Assembly: GCA_016792845.1 (NCBI GenBank)
Contig: JAEUKH010000006.1
Span: 62,899 to 126,898 of the forward strand
Direction of reading: 5' to 3'
From: Myxococcales bacterium
GTDB taxonomy: Bacteria > Myxococcota_A > Polyangia > Polyangiales > Ga0077539
Length of the DNA: 64,000 nucleotides
Shown here: positions 34,360 to 43,087 of the stretch, piece by piece
How positions within the stretch are numbered: position 1 is the stretch's first letter
Layout: every line of letters starts with the position of its first letter
Program-made: the position numbers and the translations under genes
Notes under the pieces: model-generated
What the model saw: only the letters and a program-made list of their open reading frames with translations
Database searches by the model: none
What the model was told of the DNA's origin: nothing

Positions 34360-34724
34360 GGGGGCGAAACGGTTTCGACGTGGGTAGTGACGCGAGAGAT
34401 GGCACGACCGCCGGCCCGTAACGGCGTAAATACTACGGAAACAAGAGCTGCGAACGATAACGCACTCCCCTTCGCTGTCGCGGCCTGAAAAACCGCCAGT
34501 GACGCGCTTCCGGCAGCCTGCCTGTGCTGACGTAAGGGTGTAAACGAACAGGCTGGCCCCTCGCTGCGCCCGCAGGGCGAGGGGTGAGAAAAATCTGTGG
34601 GCTGGTTGCCCCGAGAGCCTGTCGATGCGCTCGAAGGGTGACGAGATTTGAGCATCGACTATGTCGTGTAGAAGTCCTCGCTGAGCGCTTGCGGACCCGG
34701 GTTCGACTCCCGGCGCCTCCACCA
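34360..34724 (+). ncRNA. ssrA: tmRNA (SsrA)
   Basis: The 5' GGGGGCGAAACGGTTTCGACG pairs with the 3' CGCCTCCACCA (7-bp acceptor stem with one G-U). T-arm is CCGGGTTCGACTCCCGG. The tag reading frame 34450-34488 encodes ANDNALPFAVAA plus a stop. Confidence 0.93.
34699..34724 (+). repeat. attL-like direct repeat (3' end of tmRNA)
   Basis: GGGTTCGACTCCCGGCGCCTCCACCA is identical to 37688-37713. Confidence 0.85.
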
Positions 34725-34755: not shown

Positions 34756-35116
34756 TCACCCCGCGGCTCGCACTGTGTGTATTGCCGCGGGTTCGCCTTG
34801 AGGCAGCTCGAGCGGCCTGACGGCGCCCCGCCGAGCGTCGAGAGAGGCGTCGCGCAGGGGCATCTCGATGGTGGCGTGGCCGAGAAGCTCCTGAACGCTT
34901 TTCAGCGTGGCGCCCCGCATCACGAGGTGGCCGGCGAAGGTGTGGCGCAAGGGAGATTGCTGCGACAACACCGTCGCCGAGCGCTTCTTCGCGACATGAA
35001 TGGATGAGGTCGCAGTCGACCACGACGCTGCGAGGGCGACTGGTGCCGTCGGTGTCTGCATCGACGGTGACCGCAACACCAGGCGAAGGCACGCGTTCAT
35101 CGACGACAATCTGCAT
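34756..35116 (-). pseudogene. tyrosine recombinase (integrase) C-terminal remnant, frameshifted
   Basis: Two overlapping minus-strand frames together give only the catalytic C-terminus, PLRHTFAGHLVMRGATLKSVQELLGHATIEMPLRDASL. The expected RY (catalytic Tyr) reads RD. No N-terminal or core-binding part is present. Confidence 0.7.
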
Positions 35117-35220: not shown

Positions 35221-35934
35221 ATGGCCATCACCGATCGCACACGAAAGATTCTGTGGGCGCGTTCTGCCGGGCGCTGCGCGATGTGCAAGCAGCGCATCAT
35301 CGTGAGCGCGACCGACGCGGACTCCGAGGCCGTTGTCGGCGAGGAGTGCCACATCGTCTCGGGCGTTCCCGGCGGCCCTCGGTACGACCCGTCTCTCCCG
35401 GCCGCCCGTGTGGACGGCTACGACAACCTCATTCTCCTGTGTGGCACCCATCACACGGAGATCGACACGCAGGTCGGCACGTACCCTGTTGCCCGCCTGC
35501 GAGAGATGCGGACGCGACATGAGGAGGCAGTCGCTGCGGCGACCGAACCAACGCGCCCGCGCCCAGGCGATGAAGTGCAACGCGAGGCTGCGATTCCGTC
35601 TCCCGACACCTTCGAGGTAAAGGTGGGGATGATCTGGTCGCAGCGGGCCGACATCGACGCGGGCCACGAGGTCATCCGCTTCAAGGGGAGCTTGCTGGCC
35701 AAGACACGCCGTGAGGATGTGAACGGCCCGACGTGGCGCTGGCTGTACCGGCTACAGAGCGGGATGTACCTCGTGTACATCCGGCGCAACTGGCGGGGCG
35801 ACTACGAAGAGGCGTGGCTCGGGCGCGCTGATCCTGACTCCGAGCGCACGACGCTGACGCTTGACGAGGTACAACAGCAGTTCCGCGAACTCGCTGCGCA
35901 GGCGGGCATTCCGCGCGTTCGCATCGTGGAGTGA
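35221..35934 (+). CDS. HNH endonuclease with an uncharacterised C-terminal domain
   Basis: The N-terminal ~95 aa reads CAMCKQRII...GEECHIVSG...YDNLILLCGTHHTEID (Cys pair plus an H-N-H arrangement). The C-terminal ~130 aa (…FKGSLLAKTRREDVNGPTWRWLYRLQSGMYLVYIRRNWRGDYEEAWLG…) has no recognisable motif. Confidence 0.75.
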   Translation: MAITDRTRKILWARSAGRCAMCKQRIIVSATDADSEAVVGEECHIVSGVPGGPRYDPSLPAARVDGYDNLILLCGTHHTEIDTQVGTYPVARLREMRTRHEEAVAAATEPTRPRPGDEVQREAAIPSPDTFEVKVGMIWSQRADIDAGHEVIRFKGSLLAKTRREDVNGPTWRWLYRLQSGMYLVYIRRNWRGDYEEAWLGRADPDSERTTLTLDEVQQQFRELAAQAGIPRVRIVE

Positions 35935-37687: not shown

Positions 37688-37713
37688 GGGTTCGACTCCC
37701 GGCGCCTCCACCA
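37688..37713 (+). repeat. attR-like direct repeat (orphan copy of the tmRNA 3' end)
   Basis: Exact 26-bp copy of 34699-34724. The upstream sequence shows only degenerate similarity to the tmRNA 3' domain, and there is no intact T-stem partner or acceptor 5' strand. Confidence 0.85.
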
Positions 37714-38078
37714 GGTTTGTTGCTTGTTTCTCTGTGACGGTGTGCGACGCGCTGGCGGGTGCGGTGACGCAAGGGCGGGCCGACGCGGCGATGCCGCAGC
37801 CGTGTGTGTGGACGCGCGTTGCGGGCGTGCCCGCGCGGCCCCAGTTCGCAGTGACCCGTTCGGCGAGGTCGCGGAGGCGGAGCCGTCCGGGTTGCGCGTC
37901 GACGCGCTCGGCTGCGGGGGGCGGGGGCGTCGGATGCACCGCTCACGAAACCGCGGCGCGGCCAGCAAGCCCATCGGCGAGCGGTCGACGCGGTTCTCAG
38001 GCGCGGAGAGGTCTTCGCGGGTGAAGGGGGCGGCAGGCACGGGCGCACATGCCCGGGTTCACCAACTCGTCGCGAGCG

Positions 38079-39146
38079 CTACGTGCCCCACGCCGCGCGC
38101 CCGAAGATGACCTCGCGGTGGAAGCTGAGATACTCCGCTCCCGGGCGCTCGAAGTCCTTTCGGCGCAGGTCGATCCTTTGATTCATCCCGCCGATGGCCT
38201 TCTCGAACGACGCGTCGTCCTCGAACAGCTCTCGCGCGCGCGGCGCTGTCACCACCGCGAGATCCTCCGCGAGCGTGAACAGGCCCCCTTCGAACGCGCG
38301 ATCATGCACGACGCACAACGAGAGACCGTTGGCCGGGTCGAGTCGCTGGTGGTCGTCGGCGTCGGCCCAAGGCCGGATGTGGCCCGCGCGGAGGAAGAGC
38401 GCGGCTGACCGAGGCGTCGCGGGGCGAAACTCGCAGAGCGCGCACTGGTTGCCGTAGTTCGCGAGGACCCGCTCGCGGAAGGGGCGCTGGCCACGCCGCG
38501 CGACACCCTCGCGACGTACGGAGGTGCCTCCCGCGGGGATCGCGATGCCGCGACTGCGAACCGCGGTGCCGGACGCCACTGCGGCGGCGTCGGCTGCGTC
38601 ACCGCCTGGGTAACCGAGCGCATCCAAGAGTGCCGGGAGCCGCGGGAGGTGCACGGACATCGTCTCGACGGCCGCCCACAGCGCGTCGAGATGACGCGCG
38701 TAGCGATCGACCACCTCGACATCGCGTGCGCTTCGGCCGGGGGCCCCTCGCGCGCCGCCGCTGAGCACGAAGCGCTGGTTCTGGATCTTCCACGAGACGG
38801 CGTCGGTGGACCGCCCGATGATCTCCGACAGGAGGGTCACGGCGGGGTGCTGCGAGCTGCTCCCATCGGCGCGGATCTTCGTGCCGCCGAGCCGCGCGGG
38901 GTCGAGGTACACGAGCAACAGAAACGCGAGGACGCTCTCCGCTTCGTTCCAGACGCGCGAAGGCCGCGTCCGCGCAGCAAGCTCTCGCGCGGCGTCTTCA
39001 AGGGTCGTGGGCCGATCCACGGCGCCAGGCTCTCGCGATCGGCCGCGTCGCGCCAGACCGAAAGAGCGTGTCGAACCTCTGCTCGCTTGATCCGCCGGAG
39101 CGCGCTGCGTTCGCAGACTCGCCCCTCGCGAAGCGCAGCGCACCAC
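38079..39146 (-). CDS. HNH-family nuclease (HNH_2-like C-terminal domain) with a ~230-aa N-terminal region of unknown function
   Basis: The C-terminal pattern is RGQRPFRERVLANYGNQCALCEF...LRAGHIRPW...NGLSLCVVHDRAFEGGLFTL. The start is uncertain. The Arg-rich first ~40 codons are doubtful, and GTG at ~39020 is possible. Confidence 0.7.
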   Translation of the reverse strand: MVRCASRGASLRTQRAPADQASRGSTRSFGLARRGRSREPGAVDRPTTLEDAARELAARTRPSRVWNEAESVLAFLLLVYLDPARLGGTKIRADGSSSQHPAVTLLSEIIGRSTDAVSWKIQNQRFVLSGGARGAPGRSARDVEVVDRYARHLDALWAAVETMSVHLPRLPALLDALGYPGGDAADAAAVASGTAVRSRGIAIPAGGTSVRREGVARRGQRPFRERVLANYGNQCALCEFRPATPRSAALFLRAGHIRPWADADDHQRLDPANGLSLCVVHDRAFEGGLFTLAEDLAVVTAPRARELFEDDASFEKAIGGMNQRIDLRRKDFERPGAEYLSFHREVIFGRAAWGT

Positions 39147-39430
39147 GCCTTCCAGCGCGTGGCCCGTCGCTCCGCGCGCACGAGTCTGCGGCTCACAACC
39201 CGCCAGTTGGGTGTGCGGAACGTGTCAACGCGTGTCGGGGCGGCCGCTGCCCGCAACGCAAACGATCACCTCGCGCACCAACCCCCCGGCACTCCGCGCC
39301 GCCGACCCGCGCCGCGCGGCTGACACCCTCGCGCGCGCCGCCGGGCCCAAAGCCCGAGCCCGAAATTTCGCGCCCTAGGCGCTCGCGAACGCGTGTGTCT
39401 GCCCGCGCCCGTACGCTACGCTGCCCCGCG

Positions 39431-39973
39431 ATGGAACGAGAGAACCTTGAAGCGTGGCTCCGCGGGCTCGAAGACTTCAACGACTTCGAGGCGGGCTTCG
39501 GTGACTTCGCGGGGGCCTTCGAGATGCTCCCGAACGCGGCGGGCCTAGAGGCCTACGTCTACCCGCTCGGCTTTCACGGCTCGGGCTCCTGGATCGCCCT
39601 CTGGCGAAAGGAGCCGACGGACTCCTGGGCCCACGCGGCGATGGTCTGGATCGACTCTGAGGGCGAGCCCTGGGAGCCCTTCGCGGCGACCCCCGCGGAG
39701 GGCCTCGCGATGCTCGCGCTCGACACCGGGGCCGTCTACGACGCCGCCGCGGCCGCGCGGTACAACCCCTCGCGCGAAGACGTCGCGGCCTGGGGCCCTC
39801 GCACCGCCGAGGCGCTCGCGAAGTGTCTCGTGCGCTACCCGGGTCAGGCAGAACACCGCGCGCGGCTCGCCGCGGCCGGCATCGCGCTGCCGTCGAACGC
39901 GCTCGACATCGCACACGCGGCGCTGACTGCCCACGGGAGCTTCGCAACGTGGCTCGCGTCTCGCGCAGCCTGA
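39431..39973 (+). CDS. hypothetical protein (possibly SMI1/KNR4-SUKH-like)
   Basis: ATG at 39431 (MERENLEAWLRGLEDF...). The motif PLGFHGSGSWIALW weakly resembles the SUKH immunity-protein core. This call is low confidence. Confidence 0.5.
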   Translation: MERENLEAWLRGLEDFNDFEAGFGDFAGAFEMLPNAAGLEAYVYPLGFHGSGSWIALWRKEPTDSWAHAAMVWIDSEGEPWEPFAATPAEGLAMLALDTGAVYDAAAAARYNPSREDVAAWGPRTAEALAKCLVRYPGQAEHRARLAAAGIALPSNALDIAHAALTAHGSFATWLASRAA

Positions 39974-39990: not shown

Positions 39991-40917
39991 TCATCGGGCG
40001 GCCTCGCGGATCGCGATGAGCCCCTCGTGCAGCGTGGTGACCCGAAAGCCGTCAAAGCGCCGCTTGAACTTGTCAGACACGAAGAGGTTGTCGTGCGCGT
40101 ACCGCGGCAAGAGCTCGGCGGCGTCGCGGAGCTGCCGGTTGAACAGTCCCGCCAGCGCGAGCTGCCAGCGCGGCAAGACCCGGTAGCGGCCCTTCACGCT
40201 GAACACCGTCGCGGCTAGCGCGACCAACGCGCGGTAGGTCAGACGCCCGTCGTCGCAGGGCAGGTGCCAGGTCTGCCCGTAGGCGTCGCGGGTGTTGCCC
40301 AAGAGCGCCATCGCGCGGCTCGCGTCGGGCGTAAAAATCAGGCTCCGCAAGGTGTCGTCGCGCAGAAAGACTCGCGCCGTCTGACCGCGCAGCAAGGGGT
40401 CGATGAGGGCGCTGTTGGTGATGCTCTGGGTCTTCGCGGGGCCGTAAAACTCGGGCGCTCGGCAGATCATCGCCTCGACCCGCCCCGCCGACATCGCGTC
40501 GAGGAGCGCAGTCGCGATGGCCGCGCGCACCCGCCCTTTGGGGCCGAAGGGCGCGAAGGCCGTGTCTTCAGTCTGCGGCGTCTCGGTCTGCGGGTACATG
40601 TACGTGTTGTCGAAGAACACGAGCCGCGCGCCGTGGGCCGCGCAGGCCTCGATGACGTTGCGCATGATGCGAGGCCATTGGGCCTCCCAGAGGGCGGTGT
40701 CCATCGGGAGGCCCGCGGTGAGGTAGGCCACCTCGGCGCCTTTGACGGCCGCGAGGGTCTGGGCCGCGTCGAGGAGGTCGGCGGGGTGAAGGCTGTCGCC
40801 CGGGTTGACCCGCTGCGGGCGTCGACTGACCAGCCGAAGGTCGGTCGTAAACTCCAGAGAGAGGCTCTCCGCGAGGCCGTGCCCGATCTGCCCGCTCGAC
40901 CCGAGGATCACTTGCAT
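39991..40917 (-). CDS. NAD(P)-binding SDR-family epimerase/reductase-like protein
   Basis: ATG at 40917. MQVILGSSGQIGHGLAESL is a Rossmann Gly motif. The remainder is consistent with atypical/extended SDR proteins. Confidence 0.75.
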   Translation of the reverse strand: MQVILGSSGQIGHGLAESLSLEFTTDLRLVSRRPQRVNPGDSLHPADLLDAAQTLAAVKGAEVAYLTAGLPMDTALWEAQWPRIMRNVIEACAAHGARLVFFDNTYMYPQTETPQTEDTAFAPFGPKGRVRAAIATALLDAMSAGRVEAMICRAPEFYGPAKTQSITNSALIDPLLRGQTARVFLRDDTLRSLIFTPDASRAMALLGNTRDAYGQTWHLPCDDGRLTYRALVALAATVFSVKGRYRVLPRWQLALAGLFNRQLRDAAELLPRYAHDNLFVSDKFKRRFDGFRVTTLHEGLIAIREAAR

Positions 40918-41044
40918 CGTAGGGCTCACTTCTAAGCCTCCCGATCGCAATGGCAACCTCCCCCACGGCGTCGCGCCGCGGCGATCGCGCCCCGACGGCG
41001 ACGCGCCCCGGTGTGGGGCGCCGCGTCGGGACTGCGGGTGCGGC

Positions 41045-41986
41045 TCAGTCGTCGAGGGTGCCGAATCGGTCGCTGTTGAAGTCGACGATGGCCTGGCGGA
41101 TCTCGGCCGCGGTGTTCATCACGAAGGGCCCATACTGCACGATCGGCTCGTCGATGGGCGCGCCGTTCAGCACCAGGAGTTGGGCCTCGGCGTCGGCCAC
41201 GAGGGTGATGGCGTCGCCCTCGTTCTTGAACACCACCAGGTCGTTGCCCTTCGCCGTGTGCGTGCCGTTGACGGTGACCGAGCCCGACATCACCAAGACC
41301 GCCGCGGTGTGGGCCGCCTCGAAGCGCAGCGGCAAGGCGCCGCCCGCGTTCAGCCGCACGTCGTAGACGTTGATGGGCGTGAAGGTCTCGGCCGGGCCTC
41401 GCACGCCCTCGTACGCGCCCGCCACCACCCGCACCGTGCCCGCGCCGTCGGCCAGGGTCACCAGGCCCATCTCGGCGGCCCGCAGCGCCTGGTATTTCGG
41501 CGCCGCCATCTTGTGGGCCCGCGGCAGGTTCACCCAGAGCTGGGCCATCTGGAAGGGGCCTCCGGCGCGGCTGAAGGCCTCGTCGTGGTACTCCTTGTGG
41601 AGGATGCCCGACGCGGCGGTCATCCACTGGACGTCGCCGGGGCCGATCACGCCGCCGCCGCCAGCGCTGTCATGGTGGGCGACGCTGCCTTGCCACGCCA
41701 GGGTCACGGTCTCAAACCCGCGGTGCGGGTGCACGCCGACGCCGCGCCGCCGCGTCGTGGCCGCGTAATGCCAGGTGGGGTGATAATCAAGCAGCAGGAA
41801 CGGGCTGAGCCGCCGCGCCGCCTCGGGAATCACCGAGAAGTACCCCGCCACCCGAAACCCATCGCCCACCCAGTGGGTGCCCGGCGGGGTGTACACCGCC
41901 TCGACCGCGCGCACCCTCTCGGTGAGGGGCGCGGTAGGCGCACGGGTCTCGGTCGCAGCGGCGGTCAGGGTCTCAACGTGGGTCAT
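41045..41986 (-). CDS. pirin-family protein
   Basis: The cupin metal site HPHRGFETVTLAWQGSVAHHDS and the second cupin half are present. ATG at 41986 (MTHVETL). Confidence 0.88.
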   Translation of the reverse strand: MTHVETLTAAATETRAPTAPLTERVRAVEAVYTPPGTHWVGDGFRVAGYFSVIPEAARRLSPFLLLDYHPTWHYAATTRRRGVGVHPHRGFETVTLAWQGSVAHHDSAGGGGVIGPGDVQWMTAASGILHKEYHDEAFSRAGGPFQMAQLWVNLPRAHKMAAPKYQALRAAEMGLVTLADGAGTVRVVAGAYEGVRGPAETFTPINVYDVRLNAGGALPLRFEAAHTAAVLVMSGSVTVNGTHTAKGNDLVVFKNEGDAITLVADAEAQLLVLNGAPIDEPIVQYGPFVMNTAAEIRQAIVDFNSDRFGTLDD

Positions 41987-42127
41987 GGCCGCATCGGCCT
42001 CCTCTCTCTGGGCCCGGGCGAGCGCCCCGCTCTGAGGCTCCTCGTCGGGCGAGAGCGAGTGTGCGCATCGCCGAGCGGCTGAACAATCTCTCAAAACAAG
42101 AAGCGCTGTTCTCAGAATTGAGACAAT

Positions 42128-43039
42128 CTACGGCTGCGGCCCCATCCGCGCGCTCAGGCGCTCGGTGAGGAGCTTCATCAGCGCGACGACCTTGGGCGCG
42201 ACGTGGCGGGTGCTCGGGTAGAGGGCCATCACGGGCACGTCGGGGGCCGACCAGGCCCCGAGCACGCGAACGAGGCGGCCCGCGGCGAGGTCGTCGAGGC
42301 ACTGGTACTCGGGCAAGAGCGCGAAGCCGAAGCCCTCGCGCACCACCGCGCGGAGGAGCTCGTAGTCGTTCACCACGAAGCGGGGCCGCACCGTGAGGGC
42401 CCGGCGGCGGGCGCCCGCGGCCAGCGACCAGGTGTCTCCCTCGGGCGCGAAGGCCACGCAGGGGCGGTCTTCGAGGGCCTCGGGTGACTTCGGCGCGCCG
42501 AGCCGTCGCACGAGGGCGGGGGCGGCGTAGAGGCCCCGTCGCACCACGCCGACCTTGCGGGCCACGAGGCTCGAATCAGGCACCGCCCCGGCCCGCAGCC
42601 CGAGGTCGAAGCCCTCGGCGATGAGGTCGACACGGCGGTCGGTGACGACGAGGTCGAGGTCGACCTCAGGGTAGAGCGAGAGGTAGGTCGCCACCAAAGG
42701 CCCGAGCACCGCGAAGCTCGGCGGGATGGTCACCCGCAAGCGGCCCTTGGGCGTGCCCTGCATGCTCGTGAGCGCCCGCTGCGCCTCTTCGAGGGCCCCC
42801 ACCACCCGCACGCAGTGCTCGTAGTACACCCGCCCGAGGTCGGTGAGGCTCACCGCGCGGGTGCTCCGCTGCAAGAGCCGCGCGCCCACCCTCGCTTCGA
42901 GCTCGGCGATCTTGCGGCTCACCGTCGACTTGGGCATCGCGAGCTGCCCGGCCGCGGCGGTGAAGCTCCCGGCCTGCACCACGCGGGTGAACGCGACGAT
43001 CTCGCCGAGGTCGGCGTCGAGGCCCGCGGCGTCGTTCAT
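42128..43039 (-). CDS. LysR-family transcriptional regulator
   Basis: The N-terminal HTH is FTAAAGQLAMPKSTVSRKIAELEARVGARLLQRSTR, and the C-terminal half is a LysR substrate-binding fold. It is adjacent to the pirin gene on the same strand. Confidence 0.88.
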   Translation of the reverse strand: MNDAAGLDADLGEIVAFTRVVQAGSFTAAAGQLAMPKSTVSRKIAELEARVGARLLQRSTRAVSLTDLGRVYYEHCVRVVGALEEAQRALTSMQGTPKGRLRVTIPPSFAVLGPLVATYLSLYPEVDLDLVVTDRRVDLIAEGFDLGLRAGAVPDSSLVARKVGVVRRGLYAAPALVRRLGAPKSPEALEDRPCVAFAPEGDTWSLAAGARRRALTVRPRFVVNDYELLRAVVREGFGFALLPEYQCLDDLAAGRLVRVLGAWSAPDVPVMALYPSTRHVAPKVVALMKLLTERLSARMGPQP

Positions 43040-43087
43040 GCTGCACAATCTGACACAGTCGACGCGATTGTTCGAGCGCGCTGCGGC

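What the first reader, a model, noticed from the sequence alone, without database searches (positions are those of the whole stretch)
37714..39973. Second HNH-family nuclease and a SUKH-like small protein just outside the distal repeat: possible older island layer or defence hotspot at ssrA
Seen: about 360 bp without a convincing gene follows attR. Then a minus-strand ORF (38079-39146) ends in an HNH_2-type motif block (NYGNQCALCEF...AGHIRPW...NGLSLCVVHDRAFEGGLF). Its ~230-aa N-terminal region is unassigned. A divergent 180-aa ORF follows, with weak SMI1/KNR4-like features. After these, ordinary metabolic genes resume (SDR, pirin, LysR). Inference: tandem accretion at the same att site commonly leaves older, repeat-less cargo distal to the newest insertion. 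These two genes may be such a remnant and may form a nuclease and immunity-like pair.
Basis: partly seen in the sequence, partly recalled or inferred. Interest (0 to 1): 0.55.

Follow-up and report, generated by a model that had tools for sequence, protein, structure and literature searches.

The report
Solitary restriction-type HNH nuclease beside ssrA
Just past a small tmRNA-gene island in a Myxococcales genome sit an intact restriction-enzyme-like HNH nuclease and an unrelated orphan gene; they are not a toxin–immunity pair, and nothing marks them as an older island layer, so the finding is largely ordinary.

Summary
The sequence observations hold. There is a 359-bp non-coding gap after attR, a minus-strand HNH_2 gene, a divergent 180-aa gene, and then SDR, pirin and LysR genes.

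Corrections and additions:
- **Gene start.** The HNH gene most likely starts at GTG 39020, giving 313 aa rather than 355.
- **N-terminal region.** It is an ArsR/SmtB-like winged-helix domain. It is followed by a linker and an HNH module most like the modification-dependent restriction enzymes VcaM4I and TagI. The catalytic residues are intact and the gene is under purifying selection.
- **Database status.** A PADLOC defence model already covers almost the whole protein.
- **Context of relatives.** DNA homology to the closest relatives (71–84%) stops at the CDS plus 46 bp. Those relatives lie in unrelated places, many next to Mrr, McrBC-like, C5-methylase or Vsr genes.
- **The 180-aa gene.** It is real but belongs to a ten-cluster orphan family. 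SUKH similarity gets no HMM support, and the fold evidence is uninformative because the model is poor. It never co-occurs with the HNH outside this species.
- **Island layer.** No third att copy exists, and no informative relative was found.

Verdict: this is an accessory, stand-alone restriction-type endonuclease, probably modification-dependent, at an ssrA integration hotspot. The pairing and "older layer" ideas are unsupported.

The parts
34360..34724 (+). tmRNA gene (ssrA), tag ANDNALPFAVAA; context only; its 3' end is attL
   Evidence: ARAGORN; Rfam RF00023, 148.8 bits
37688..37719 (+). attR: direct repeat of the tmRNA 3' end (26 nt exact, 30/32 overall); distal end of the 3-kb AbiE/HNH islet
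   Evidence: 0 matches expected by chance
37720..38078 (.). 359-bp non-coding spacer between attR and the HNH stop codon; no degenerate att copy; 42-nt indel polymorphism at about 37895-37907 among strains
   Evidence: flat codon-position GC; fold z -0.53; att scans; strain comparison
38079..39020 (-). wH-HNH restriction-type endonuclease gene, 313 aa from GTG 39020 (stop codon at 38079-38081)
   Evidence: GC3 0.85; homologues of 304-317 aa (a few gene calls are 345-358 aa through differing ends) aligned from residue ~5; gene call identical in L001 and L089-L096; dN/dS 0.21-0.29
38646..39020 (-). N-terminal domain (about residues 1-125): ArsR/SmtB-like winged helix-turn-helix, the presumed DNA-recognition or reader module
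   Evidence: profile vs PDB: SmtB 1r22, E 1e-4 across the whole wHTH; AF2 pLDDT 80-95, helical; weak MarR fold hits; conserved W24, G69-R70, K78, N81, G92
38499..38645 (-). low-complexity, poorly conserved linker (about residues 126-174); its C-terminal part aligns to the VcaM4I linker helix
   Evidence: AF2 pLDDT <50 for residues 139-190; profile alignment to VcaM4I residues 152-308
38082..38498 (-). HNH_2 nuclease domain plus C-terminal helices (residues 175-313); catalytic H214, N231, D240, E244
   Evidence: Pfam PF13391; VcaM4I 6yex, E 5.6e-22, and TagI 6ghs; residue equivalence to VcaM4I H224/N241/D250/D254 (and PMC7897488)
39021..39066 (-). 46-nt leader upstream of the GTG start, nearly invariant across the closest relatives; DNA homology to those relatives ends here
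39067..39430 (.). 364-bp non-coding spacer with no homology to any relative and no remnant of the partner gene found in relatives
   Evidence: flat GC by codon position over 39068-39430; tblastn negative; fold z -0.58
39431..39973 (+). ORF180: acidic (pI 4.7) 180-aa protein of a small orphan family, function unknown; not linked to the HNH gene elsewhere
   Evidence: GC3 0.88; only 10 clusters in 5.8 billion proteins, none with Pfam; no Pfam/PADLOC/NCBIfam/PHROG hit; contexts L003, L099, L100

Best explanation
The gene at 38079-39020 encodes a stand-alone, two-domain restriction-type DNA endonuclease. It has an N-terminal ArsR/SmtB-like winged-helix DNA-recognition domain, a flexible linker, and a C-terminal HNH_2 nuclease module of the kind that dimerises in VcaM4I and TagI.

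I propose that it acts like an NTP-independent Type IV (modification-dependent) restriction enzyme. The winged-helix domains of a dimer would bind incoming DNA that carries a mark or site the host lacks. The linker's auto-inhibition would be relieved, and the paired HNH domains would cut nearby.

It is a single-gene accessory defence cassette that happens to lie 359 bp beyond attR of the ssrA islet. ORF180 (39431-39973) is an unrelated lineage-specific orphan gene, not its immunity partner.

- **Shown:** domain architecture, intact catalytic residues, purifying selection, homology limited to the single gene, defence-type neighbourhoods of relatives, and absence of a methylase in the 64-kb window.
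- **Inferred:** dimerisation, modification dependence, and an anti-phage role.
For: - **Family matches.** Pfam HNH_2 is above threshold. PADLOC PDLC04132 'HNH' matches at 4.3e-31 over residues 60-351 of the 355-aa ORF, and PDLC03546 at 4e-10.
- **Nuclease module.** The family profile matches VcaM4I (linker plus HNH, residues 152-308) at 5.6e-22, and also TagI. Foldseek's top hit is VcaM4I with probability 0.90.
- **Catalytic residues.** H214, N231, D240 and E244 align to the residues experimentally validated in VcaM4I, and the first three are invariant in 25 homologues (E244 is always acidic, E or D).
- **N-terminal domain.** Its profile matches the SmtB winged helix at 1e-4 over the whole domain.
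- **Selection.** dN/dS is 0.21-0.29.
- **Cassette limits.** Homology to the closest loci is confined to 38085-39066.
- **Neighbourhoods of relatives.** These include Mrr_cat, a C5 methylase, McrBC-like genes plus Dcm plus Vsr, Nmad2/Nmad3 plus a methylase-HNH_4 fusion, and a helicase island.
- **Solitary state.** Within the closest subfamily (67% identity or more), four of five contexts have no methylase in the DNA available. That is 64 kb for the window and 17 kb for L002, but only 3-5 kb for L004 and L098.
- **Precedent.** Solitary wH-nuclease fusions are established Type IV enzymes (PMC11037411).
Against: - No member of this N-domain family has been characterised.
- Four of 12 contexts of the wider family place the gene beside C5 methylase and/or Vsr genes. 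That fits a Type II enzyme blocked by methylation rather than one dependent on it.
- The N-domain profile does not match the DpnI winged helix at E up to 10.
- The AF2 model of the HNH half is poor (pLDDT 44-80), and the Foldseek E-value for VcaM4I is only 0.53.
- The system to which PADLOC model PDLC04132 belongs is not known to me.
- Only 64 kb of the genome was searched for methylases.
Confidence: 0.45

Rival explanations
1. It is an orphaned Type II-like restriction endonuclease. The winged-helix domain would read a specific unmethylated sequence, and a C5-cytosine methylase encoded elsewhere in the genome would protect host DNA.
For: - The wider family recurs next to C5 methylase/Vsr modules: the P0016 locus (HNH, a 67-aa ORF, DNA_methylase, Vsr), L097, L188 (HNH then Vsr), and the gonococcal NgoAXIII locus between pheS and pheT (Vsr, truncated methylase, HNH).
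- PADLOC's 'Type II restriction enzyme HNH' model matches at 4e-10 and includes the N-domain.
Against: - No methylase motif occurs in any real gene of the 64-kb window.
- Four of five closest relatives have no methylase in the DNA available.
- In L097 the methylase is separated from the HNH gene by an opposite-strand ORF.
- In gonococci the HNH gene stays intact although the adjacent methylase is inactive (PMC6789123).
- The nuclease module is closest to modification-dependent enzymes.
Confidence: 0.25
2. One reading: the HNH gene and ORF180 are the decayed cargo of an older element that integrated at ssrA before the present 3-kb islet and has lost its distal repeat.
For: - The segment lies directly distal to attR.
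- ssrA is an active integration site here and in the syntenic relative L103.
- The HNH gene is clearly accessory, and its GC3 (0.85) is at the low end for the window.
- Large non-coding spacers (359 and 410 bp) flank the HNH gene.
Against: - There is no third att copy even at 9 of 26 mismatches above the shuffle level.
- Only 17 bp separate ORF180 from the SDR gene.
- The segment has no integrase or mobility gene.
- Overall GC is not distinctive.
- No presence/absence polymorphism appears in nine contigs.
- HNH relatives elsewhere are not near tRNA or tmRNA genes, apart from a tRNA-Gly 7 kb from the gene in L005.
Confidence: 0.2
3. One reading: the HNH protein is a toxin and ORF180 is its SUKH-like immunity protein.
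For: - The two genes are adjacent and divergent.
- ORF180 is small and acidic (pI 4.7).
- Its predicted alpha-beta(4)-alpha order is compatible with a SUKH-like fold.
- YobK (2prv) appears in the Foldseek list, but only at E of about 8.
Against: - No homologue of ORF180 lies beside any HNH homologue outside this species.
- No homologue of this HNH lies beside any ORF180 homologue.
- A 410-bp spacer separates the genes.
- No SUKH Pfam hit appears for any of seven family members scanned at E up to 10.
- The AF2 model is low-confidence (pLDDT 56).
- The HNH protein lacks any delivery or toxin-presentation domain, and its closest relatives pair with a different gene.
Confidence: 0.05

Closest known systems
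VcaM4I (EVE-HNH) and TagI (SRA-HNH), NTP-independent modification-dependent restriction endonucleases (PDB 6yex, 6ghs)
   Same: - Both have a two-domain layout: an N-terminal DNA-recognition domain, a linker helix and a C-terminal HNH_2 module.
- The profile match covers VcaM4I residues 152-308 (E 5.6e-22).
- The catalytic H/N/D/acidic residues are equivalent.
- Both are solitary genes without an adjacent methylase.
   Different: - The N-terminal domain is helical and winged-helix-like, not a PUA/EVE/SRA beta-barrel.
- The target modification is unknown.
- No biochemical data exist.
[quoted passage not shown] 2024, PMC11037411)
   Different: - Those are mostly haloarchaeal proteins of 224-283 aa with a DpnI-type winged helix and a G6mATC motif.
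- This N-domain matches ArsR/SmtB and not DpnI.
- Direct sequence comparison with those enzymes was not possible.
Gonococcal HNH 'restriction endonuclease' Q5F9T7 in the NgoAXIII (Vsr plus truncated C5 methylase) locus between pheS and pheT
   Same: - It shares the two-domain architecture: hhalign on the N-domain gives probability 98.9% and E 2e-17, and it also carries HNH_2.
- tblastn covers 91% of the query at 26% identity.
   Different: - It is shorter (249 aa) and lacks the Gly/Ala-rich linker.
- It sits in an R-M remnant with Vsr.
- It is uncharacterised in the literature I found (PMC6789123 does not mention it).
SBD-HNH phosphorothioate-dependent endonucleases (ScoMcrA/SprMcrA; NCBIfam NF045808)
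   Same: The HNH half is homologous (E 1.6e-14 over model positions 159-283).
   Different: - The score of 53.7 bits is far below the 180-bit cutoff.
- The sulfur-binding domain half does not align.
- No SBD structure appears among the fold hits.
SUKH / SMI1-KNR4 immunity proteins (for example B. subtilis YobK, 2prv), compared with ORF180
   Same: Both are small and acidic, and the predicted secondary-structure order is compatible.
   Different: - There is no HMM hit.
- The fold match is at noise level (E about 8, TM 0.15-0.26).
- There is no polymorphic-toxin neighbour.
- ORF180 is not linked to a nuclease in any other genome.

Membership tests
Pfam HNH_2 (PF13391) nucleases | Domain HMM match above the gathering score | tested here: met
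   28.7-28.9 bits against a cutoff of 21; all 25 aligned homologues match
Pfam HNH_2 (PF13391) nucleases | Intact beta-beta-alpha-Me catalytic residues (His general base, structural Asn, acidic or His metal ligands) | tested here: met
   H214, N231, D240 and E244 align to VcaM4I H224/N241/D250/D254. H214, N231 and D240 are invariant in alignment A1
Two-domain NTP-independent Type IV (modification-dependent) endonucleases | Separate N-terminal reader domain joined by a linker helix to a dimerising HNH domain | tested here: met
   N-domain residues 1-~125 are modelled confidently. The profile aligns to the VcaM4I linker plus HNH, residues 152-308. Dimerisation itself was not tested
Two-domain NTP-independent Type IV (modification-dependent) endonucleases | No cognate methyltransferase next to the gene | tested here: met
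   No C5 or N6 methylase motif in any real gene of the 64-kb window; neighbours are ORF180 and the SDR gene
Two-domain NTP-independent Type IV (modification-dependent) endonucleases | Cleavage requires modified DNA | not testable with these tools
   Needs biochemistry or genetics
wH-nuclease fusion 6mA readers (DpnI/HhiV4I type) | DpnI-like winged helix carrying the 6mA/GATC recognition motif | tested here: not met
   The N-domain profile finds SmtB and NolR (ArsR family) but not DpnI in the PDB at E up to 10. Sequences of SruGXI and related enzymes were not available, so this is a partial test
Type II restriction-modification system | Adjacent cognate DNA methyltransferase | tested here: not met
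   None in the window. The feature is present beside some distant family members
Phosphorothioate-dependent SBD-HNH (NCBIfam NF045808) | Full-length match above the curated cutoff, including the sulfur-binding domain | tested here: not met
   53.7 bits against a cutoff of 180; only model positions 159-283 match
PADLOC defence protein model PDLC04132 'HNH' | Near full-length HMM match | tested here: met
   E 4.3e-31, protein residues 60-351 of 355, profile positions 23-275 of 286. The system this model belongs to is unknown to me
SUKH / SMI1-KNR4 immunity proteins (ORF180) | Match to a SUKH-clan HMM | tested here: not met
   No Pfam hit for ORF180 or six relatives at E up to 10
SUKH / SMI1-KNR4 immunity proteins (ORF180) | SUKH alpha/beta fold | tested here: inconclusive
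   The AF2 model has pLDDT 56. Foldseek gives nothing below E 1.5, and YobK appears only at E about 8
SUKH / SMI1-KNR4 immunity proteins (ORF180) | Conserved adjacency to a cognate toxin gene | tested here: not met
   The ORF180 homologues in L003, L099, L100 and L101 have no homologue of this HNH nearby, and no toxin domain was found among those neighbours that were scanned. Their neighbours all differ
tRNA/tmRNA-integrated genomic island (older layer) | Flanking direct repeat of the tmRNA 3' end distal to the cargo | tested here: not met
   Only two copies at up to 3 mismatches. Hits at up to 9 mismatches number 26, against 9-24 in shuffles
tRNA/tmRNA-integrated genomic island (older layer) | Presence/absence polymorphism of the segment among relatives | tested here: inconclusive
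   Nine contigs at 97.6-100% identity all have the same order. The only syntenic relative (L103) has a different, larger element after ssrA whose far end lies beyond the fetched DNA

The most novel reading that the evidence does not exclude
The ArsR-like winged-helix plus HNH_2 proteins may be an uncharacterised class of restriction enzyme. Its members include this rare Myxococcota subfamily, its 219-247-aa unknown partner in the closest relatives, and the gonococcal NgoAXIII-locus protein. The winged helix could read a DNA mark or sequence state not yet assigned to any reader domain. The family would switch between methylase-linked (Type II-like) and solitary (Type IV-like) lifestyles.
Probability: 0.25. 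Interest if true: 0.45.

Novelty: new member of a known kind. Interest (0 to 1): 0.25.

Why it matters
If the mechanism is right, the window shows three defence-type modules packed into 5 kb downstream of ssrA:
- a CBASS-effector-like HNH;
- AbiEi/AbiEii;
- a solitary wH-HNH restriction enzyme.

That adds one more example of a tmRNA gene acting as a defence hotspot in Myxococcota. The wider wH-HNH_2 family has no characterised member and includes a conserved gonococcal gene. Determining its specificity would add a reader domain to the restriction-enzyme toolbox. Otherwise the finding is routine annotation: a hypothetical protein can be renamed, and a proposed toxin-immunity pair can be dropped.

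Tried and rejected
- **Degenerate att copies.** I scanned the whole window with up to 9 of 26 mismatches and ran blastn-short with the tmRNA 3' 160 nt. Only chance-level hits appeared.
- **Synteny through the SDR gene.** The genome-contig scan showed that the SDR family is spread across Proteobacteria. The three Myxococcota loci share no other gene with the window and have no tmRNA.
- **Synteny through the ssrA-upstream gene.** In the metagenome scan, only L103 and L104 keep the ORF236-SspB-tmRNA order, and a different integrative element follows ssrA there.
- **Strain-level polymorphism.** There is none.
- **Reach of the N-domain alone.** A search against 1.84 billion representatives gave 7 hits, all of the same family.
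- **Fold search of the full model.** Only VcaM4I and weak MarR hits appeared. There was no SBD, SRA, EVE or DpnI match.
- **ORF180.** Searches of Pfam, PADLOC, NCBIfam, PHROGs, PDB sequences, a profile search, AF2 and Foldseek were all negative or at noise level.
- **Remnant of the relatives' partner gene in 39021-39430.** None was found at E up to 10.
- **RNA families, promoters, terminators and structure in the two spacers.** Nothing was found beyond the attR tmRNA fragment.
- **Are the two HNH proteins of the window paralogues?** No; BLASTP gives E 0.31.
- **Is the gonococcal homologue R.NmeDI?** Probably not. R.NmeDI is 351 aa and lies in a different system at the same pheS-pheT site (PMC2095814, PMC6789123).
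Full report
**Setting.** The window is about 70% GC. ORF180 is 100% identical to NCBI protein JNK72_02540 of a Myxococcales MAG. In that record the HNH protein is a 279-aa 'hypothetical protein', JNK72_02535. A tmRNA gene lies at 34360-34724. Its 3' 26-mer recurs exactly at 37688-37713, and the repeat extends to 32 nt at 30/32 identity. The repeats bracket a 3-kb islet. The islet carries a CBASS-effector-like HNH protein, AbiEii and AbiEi, and a tyrosine-recombinase remnant next to attL.

**Check of the observation.**
- The 359 bp after attR (37720-38078) have flat codon-position GC and no significant fold.
- The ORF 38079-39146 carries Pfam HNH_2 above threshold at the quoted motifs.
- ORF 39431-39973 is a real gene, with GC3 0.88 and conserved homologues.
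- An NAD-dependent epimerase/SDR gene, a pirin gene and a LysR gene follow.

Two corrections apply.
- The first 42 codons of the 355-aa ORF lack coding signal (GC3 0.62). Homologues are mostly 304-317 aa and align from residue 5 of a protein starting at GTG 39020. Every gene call on nine near-identical contigs uses that start. The protein is therefore 313 aa.
- The SUKH resemblance of ORF180 could not be reproduced by any method.

**What the HNH protein is.**
- PADLOC model PDLC04132 ('HNH') matches almost the whole protein at 4.3e-31. A 'Type II restriction enzyme HNH' model matches at 4e-10.
- NCBIfam's phosphorothioate-dependent endonuclease model matches only the HNH half and scores far below its cutoff.
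- A profile of 25 homologues matches VcaM4I (6yex) at 5.6e-22 over residues 152-308, which are its auto-inhibitory linker helix plus the HNH domain. It also matches TagI. VcaM4I is also the top Foldseek hit, with probability 0.90 but E 0.53 because that half of the model is poor.
- The four residues shown by mutagenesis to matter in VcaM4I are H224, N241, D250 and D254 (PMC7897488). They correspond to H214, N231, D240 and E244 here, and these positions are conserved across the family.
- dN/dS against four relatives is 0.21-0.29. The enzyme therefore looks active and maintained.

**The unassigned N-terminal region.**
- Residues 1-~135 are modelled with pLDDT 80-95 as a helical domain.
- A profile of this region alone matches the cyanobacterial ArsR-family repressor SmtB at E 1e-4. 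The match runs from helix 2 through the recognition helix and wing to the last helix. NolR matches more weakly.
- The only fold hits are weak MarR-type winged helices.
- The domain is not a PUA, SRA or EVE barrel, and it does not match a sulfur-binding domain or DpnI.
- As a sequence family it is rare. A single-sequence search of 1.84 billion representatives returned seven proteins. The full protein found 34 clusters at E up to 0.001 among the word-sharing candidates scored from 5.8 billion proteins.
- A shorter, more distant branch shares both domains. It includes a 249-aa gonococcal protein, Q5F9T7. tblastn covers 91% of the query at 26% identity, and hhalign on the N-domain gives probability 98.9%.

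**Context of relatives.**
- DNA similarity between the window and the closest loci (L097 84%, L098 83%, L004 79%, L002 71%) is confined to 38085-39066. That is the CDS plus 46 bp upstream. The flanks are unrelated in every case.
- The neighbours of relatives are as follows:

| Locus | Neighbouring genes |
|---|---|
| L098 | Mrr_cat nuclease |
| L097 | 489-aa C5 methylase |
| P0016 locus | McrBC-like pair, C5 methylase and Vsr |
| L005 | Nmad2/Nmad3 and a methylase-HNH_4 fusion |
| L006 | large helicase island |
| L183 | GHKL ATPase operon on a viral contig |
| L188 | Vsr |
| L182 (gonococcus) | Vsr and a truncated C5 methylase between pheS and pheT |
| L002 | plain housekeeping genes |

- The gene thus behaves as a mobile single-gene defence cassette.
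- Four of 12 contexts include C5 methylase and/or Vsr. Some family members are therefore probably Type II enzymes.
- Within the closest subfamily (67% identity or more), four of five copies have no methylase in the DNA available, although for L004 and L098 that is only 3-5 kb. No methylase motif occurs in any real gene of the 64-kb window.

**Mechanism.** I favour a solitary, modification-dependent (Type IV-like) enzyme built on the VcaM4I/TagI plan with a winged-helix reader, as in the wH-nuclease fusions of Helbrecht et al. (PMC11037411). An orphaned Type II enzyme protected by a distant methylase is the main rival. Sequence alone cannot decide between them.

**ORF180 and the pairing hypothesis.**
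- ORF180 belongs to a ten-cluster orphan family without any Pfam domain, found only in high-GC metagenomes.
- Pfam (seven members scanned at E up to 10), PADLOC, NCBIfam, PHROGs and PDB sequence searches are all negative.
- The AF2 model is weak (pLDDT 56). Foldseek gives nothing below E 1.5. The SUKH protein YobK appears only at E of about 8.
- Its homologues sit beside an acyltransferase and an FGE-sulfatase-like gene (L003), beside unknown genes (L099), and near mutL-miaA (L100). None lies beside a homologue of this HNH.
- Conversely, no ORF180 homologue is detectable beside any HNH homologue outside this species.
- The three closest HNH loci share a different, divergently transcribed partner of 219-247 aa. 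It has no database match and is absent from the window, even as a remnant.
- The toxin-immunity reading is therefore not supported.

**The 'older island layer'.**
- No third att copy exists. Hits to the 26-mer at up to 9 mismatches number 26, against 9-24 in shuffles.
- ORF180 and the SDR gene are 17 bp apart, which leaves no room for a relic repeat.
- The segment has no mobility gene, and its overall GC is ordinary.
- All nine contigs of this population have the same arrangement.
- The SDR-based scan gave no syntenic Myxococcota locus.
- The only relative that keeps the genes upstream of ssrA (L103 and L104, tag ANDNDVPFAVAA) has an intact integrase, a Replic_Relax protein and a HerA/FtsK-like ATPase directly after ssrA. 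This shows that ssrA is a live integration site in the lineage. It says nothing about the origin of the HNH gene and ORF180.
- The origin question stays open. 'Defence hotspot' is a fair description, but 'older layer' is unproven.

**Verdict.** The feature is real and was correctly described. It is best read as a new member of a known kind: a stand-alone restriction-type wH-HNH endonuclease next to an unrelated orphan gene. Interest is low to moderate. The residual novelty lies in the uncharacterised winged-helix reader family and its unknown partner gene in relatives.

Noticed in passing
window 34756-35060 (-): A tyrosine-recombinase C-terminal remnant ('[33 protein letters not shown]') lies next to attL. 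In strain contig L093 the corresponding call (63-368) has a weak Pfam Phage_integrase hit. The 3-kb islet has therefore lost most of its integrase.
   Followed up: partly
window 39021-39066 (-): The 46-nt leader before the HNH start is nearly invariant in L097, L098 and L004, while the CDS is about 80% identical. Eight of 12 substitutions fall on third positions of the in-frame extension 'SFGLARRGRSREPGA'. It also holds a CGCGA..TCGCG palindrome around CGATCG. It may be translated from a non-canonical start, or it may be an operator.
   Followed up: partly
L097 9-752 (-), L004 736-1395 (-), L098 105-374 (-): The closest HNH relatives share a divergently transcribed 219-247-aa protein (70-83% identical to each other). 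It carries a 'DHDLVL...WFEVSDV...NRKEEKDL' motif and has no Pfam, PADLOC, PHROG or PDB match. It is possibly the true partner of this HNH subfamily and is absent from the window.
   Followed up: partly
L103 11417-17271: In the only syntenic relative, ssrA (tag ANDNDVPFAVAA) is followed at once by an intact 417-aa integrase, a Replic_Relax protein and a HerA/FtsK-like ATPase. This looks like an integrative mobilisable element at the same site.
   Followed up: partly
L182 3956-5747 (N. gonorrhoeae, pheS-pheT 'NgoAXIII' locus): The locus holds Vsr, a 133-aa truncated C5 methylase, a 113-aa ORF and an intact 249-aa wH-HNH protein (Q5F9T7, 372 cluster members). Published descriptions of NgoAXIII mention only Vsr and the dead methylase, not this nuclease.
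   Followed up: partly
window 37895-37907: Strain contigs L089, L092 and L093 carry an insertion or duplication of about 42 nt here relative to the window. It lies inside an imperfect 41-nt inverted repeat (37794-37834 / 37877-37917).
   Followed up: no
window 31562 and 44132: Independent Logan assemblies of this population repeatedly break at these two coordinates, which suggests repeated sequence at both ends of the 12.6-kb block.
   Followed up: no
window 39991-43048: The best homologues of the SDR gene are proteobacterial (74%) rather than Myxococcota (63-71%). SDR-pirin adjacency recurs in Solimonas (L015), Aquirhabdus (L026) and Fontimonas (L049). The 'ordinary' SDR-pirin-LysR module may itself have been acquired horizontally.
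   Followed up: partly
window 35221-35934 (+): The islet's own HNH protein matches the N-terminal nuclease part of CBASS/SAVED-HNH effectors and PDC-M68A (E down to 6e-30) but lacks their sensor half. It is unrelated to the second HNH (BLASTP E 0.31).
   Followed up: partly
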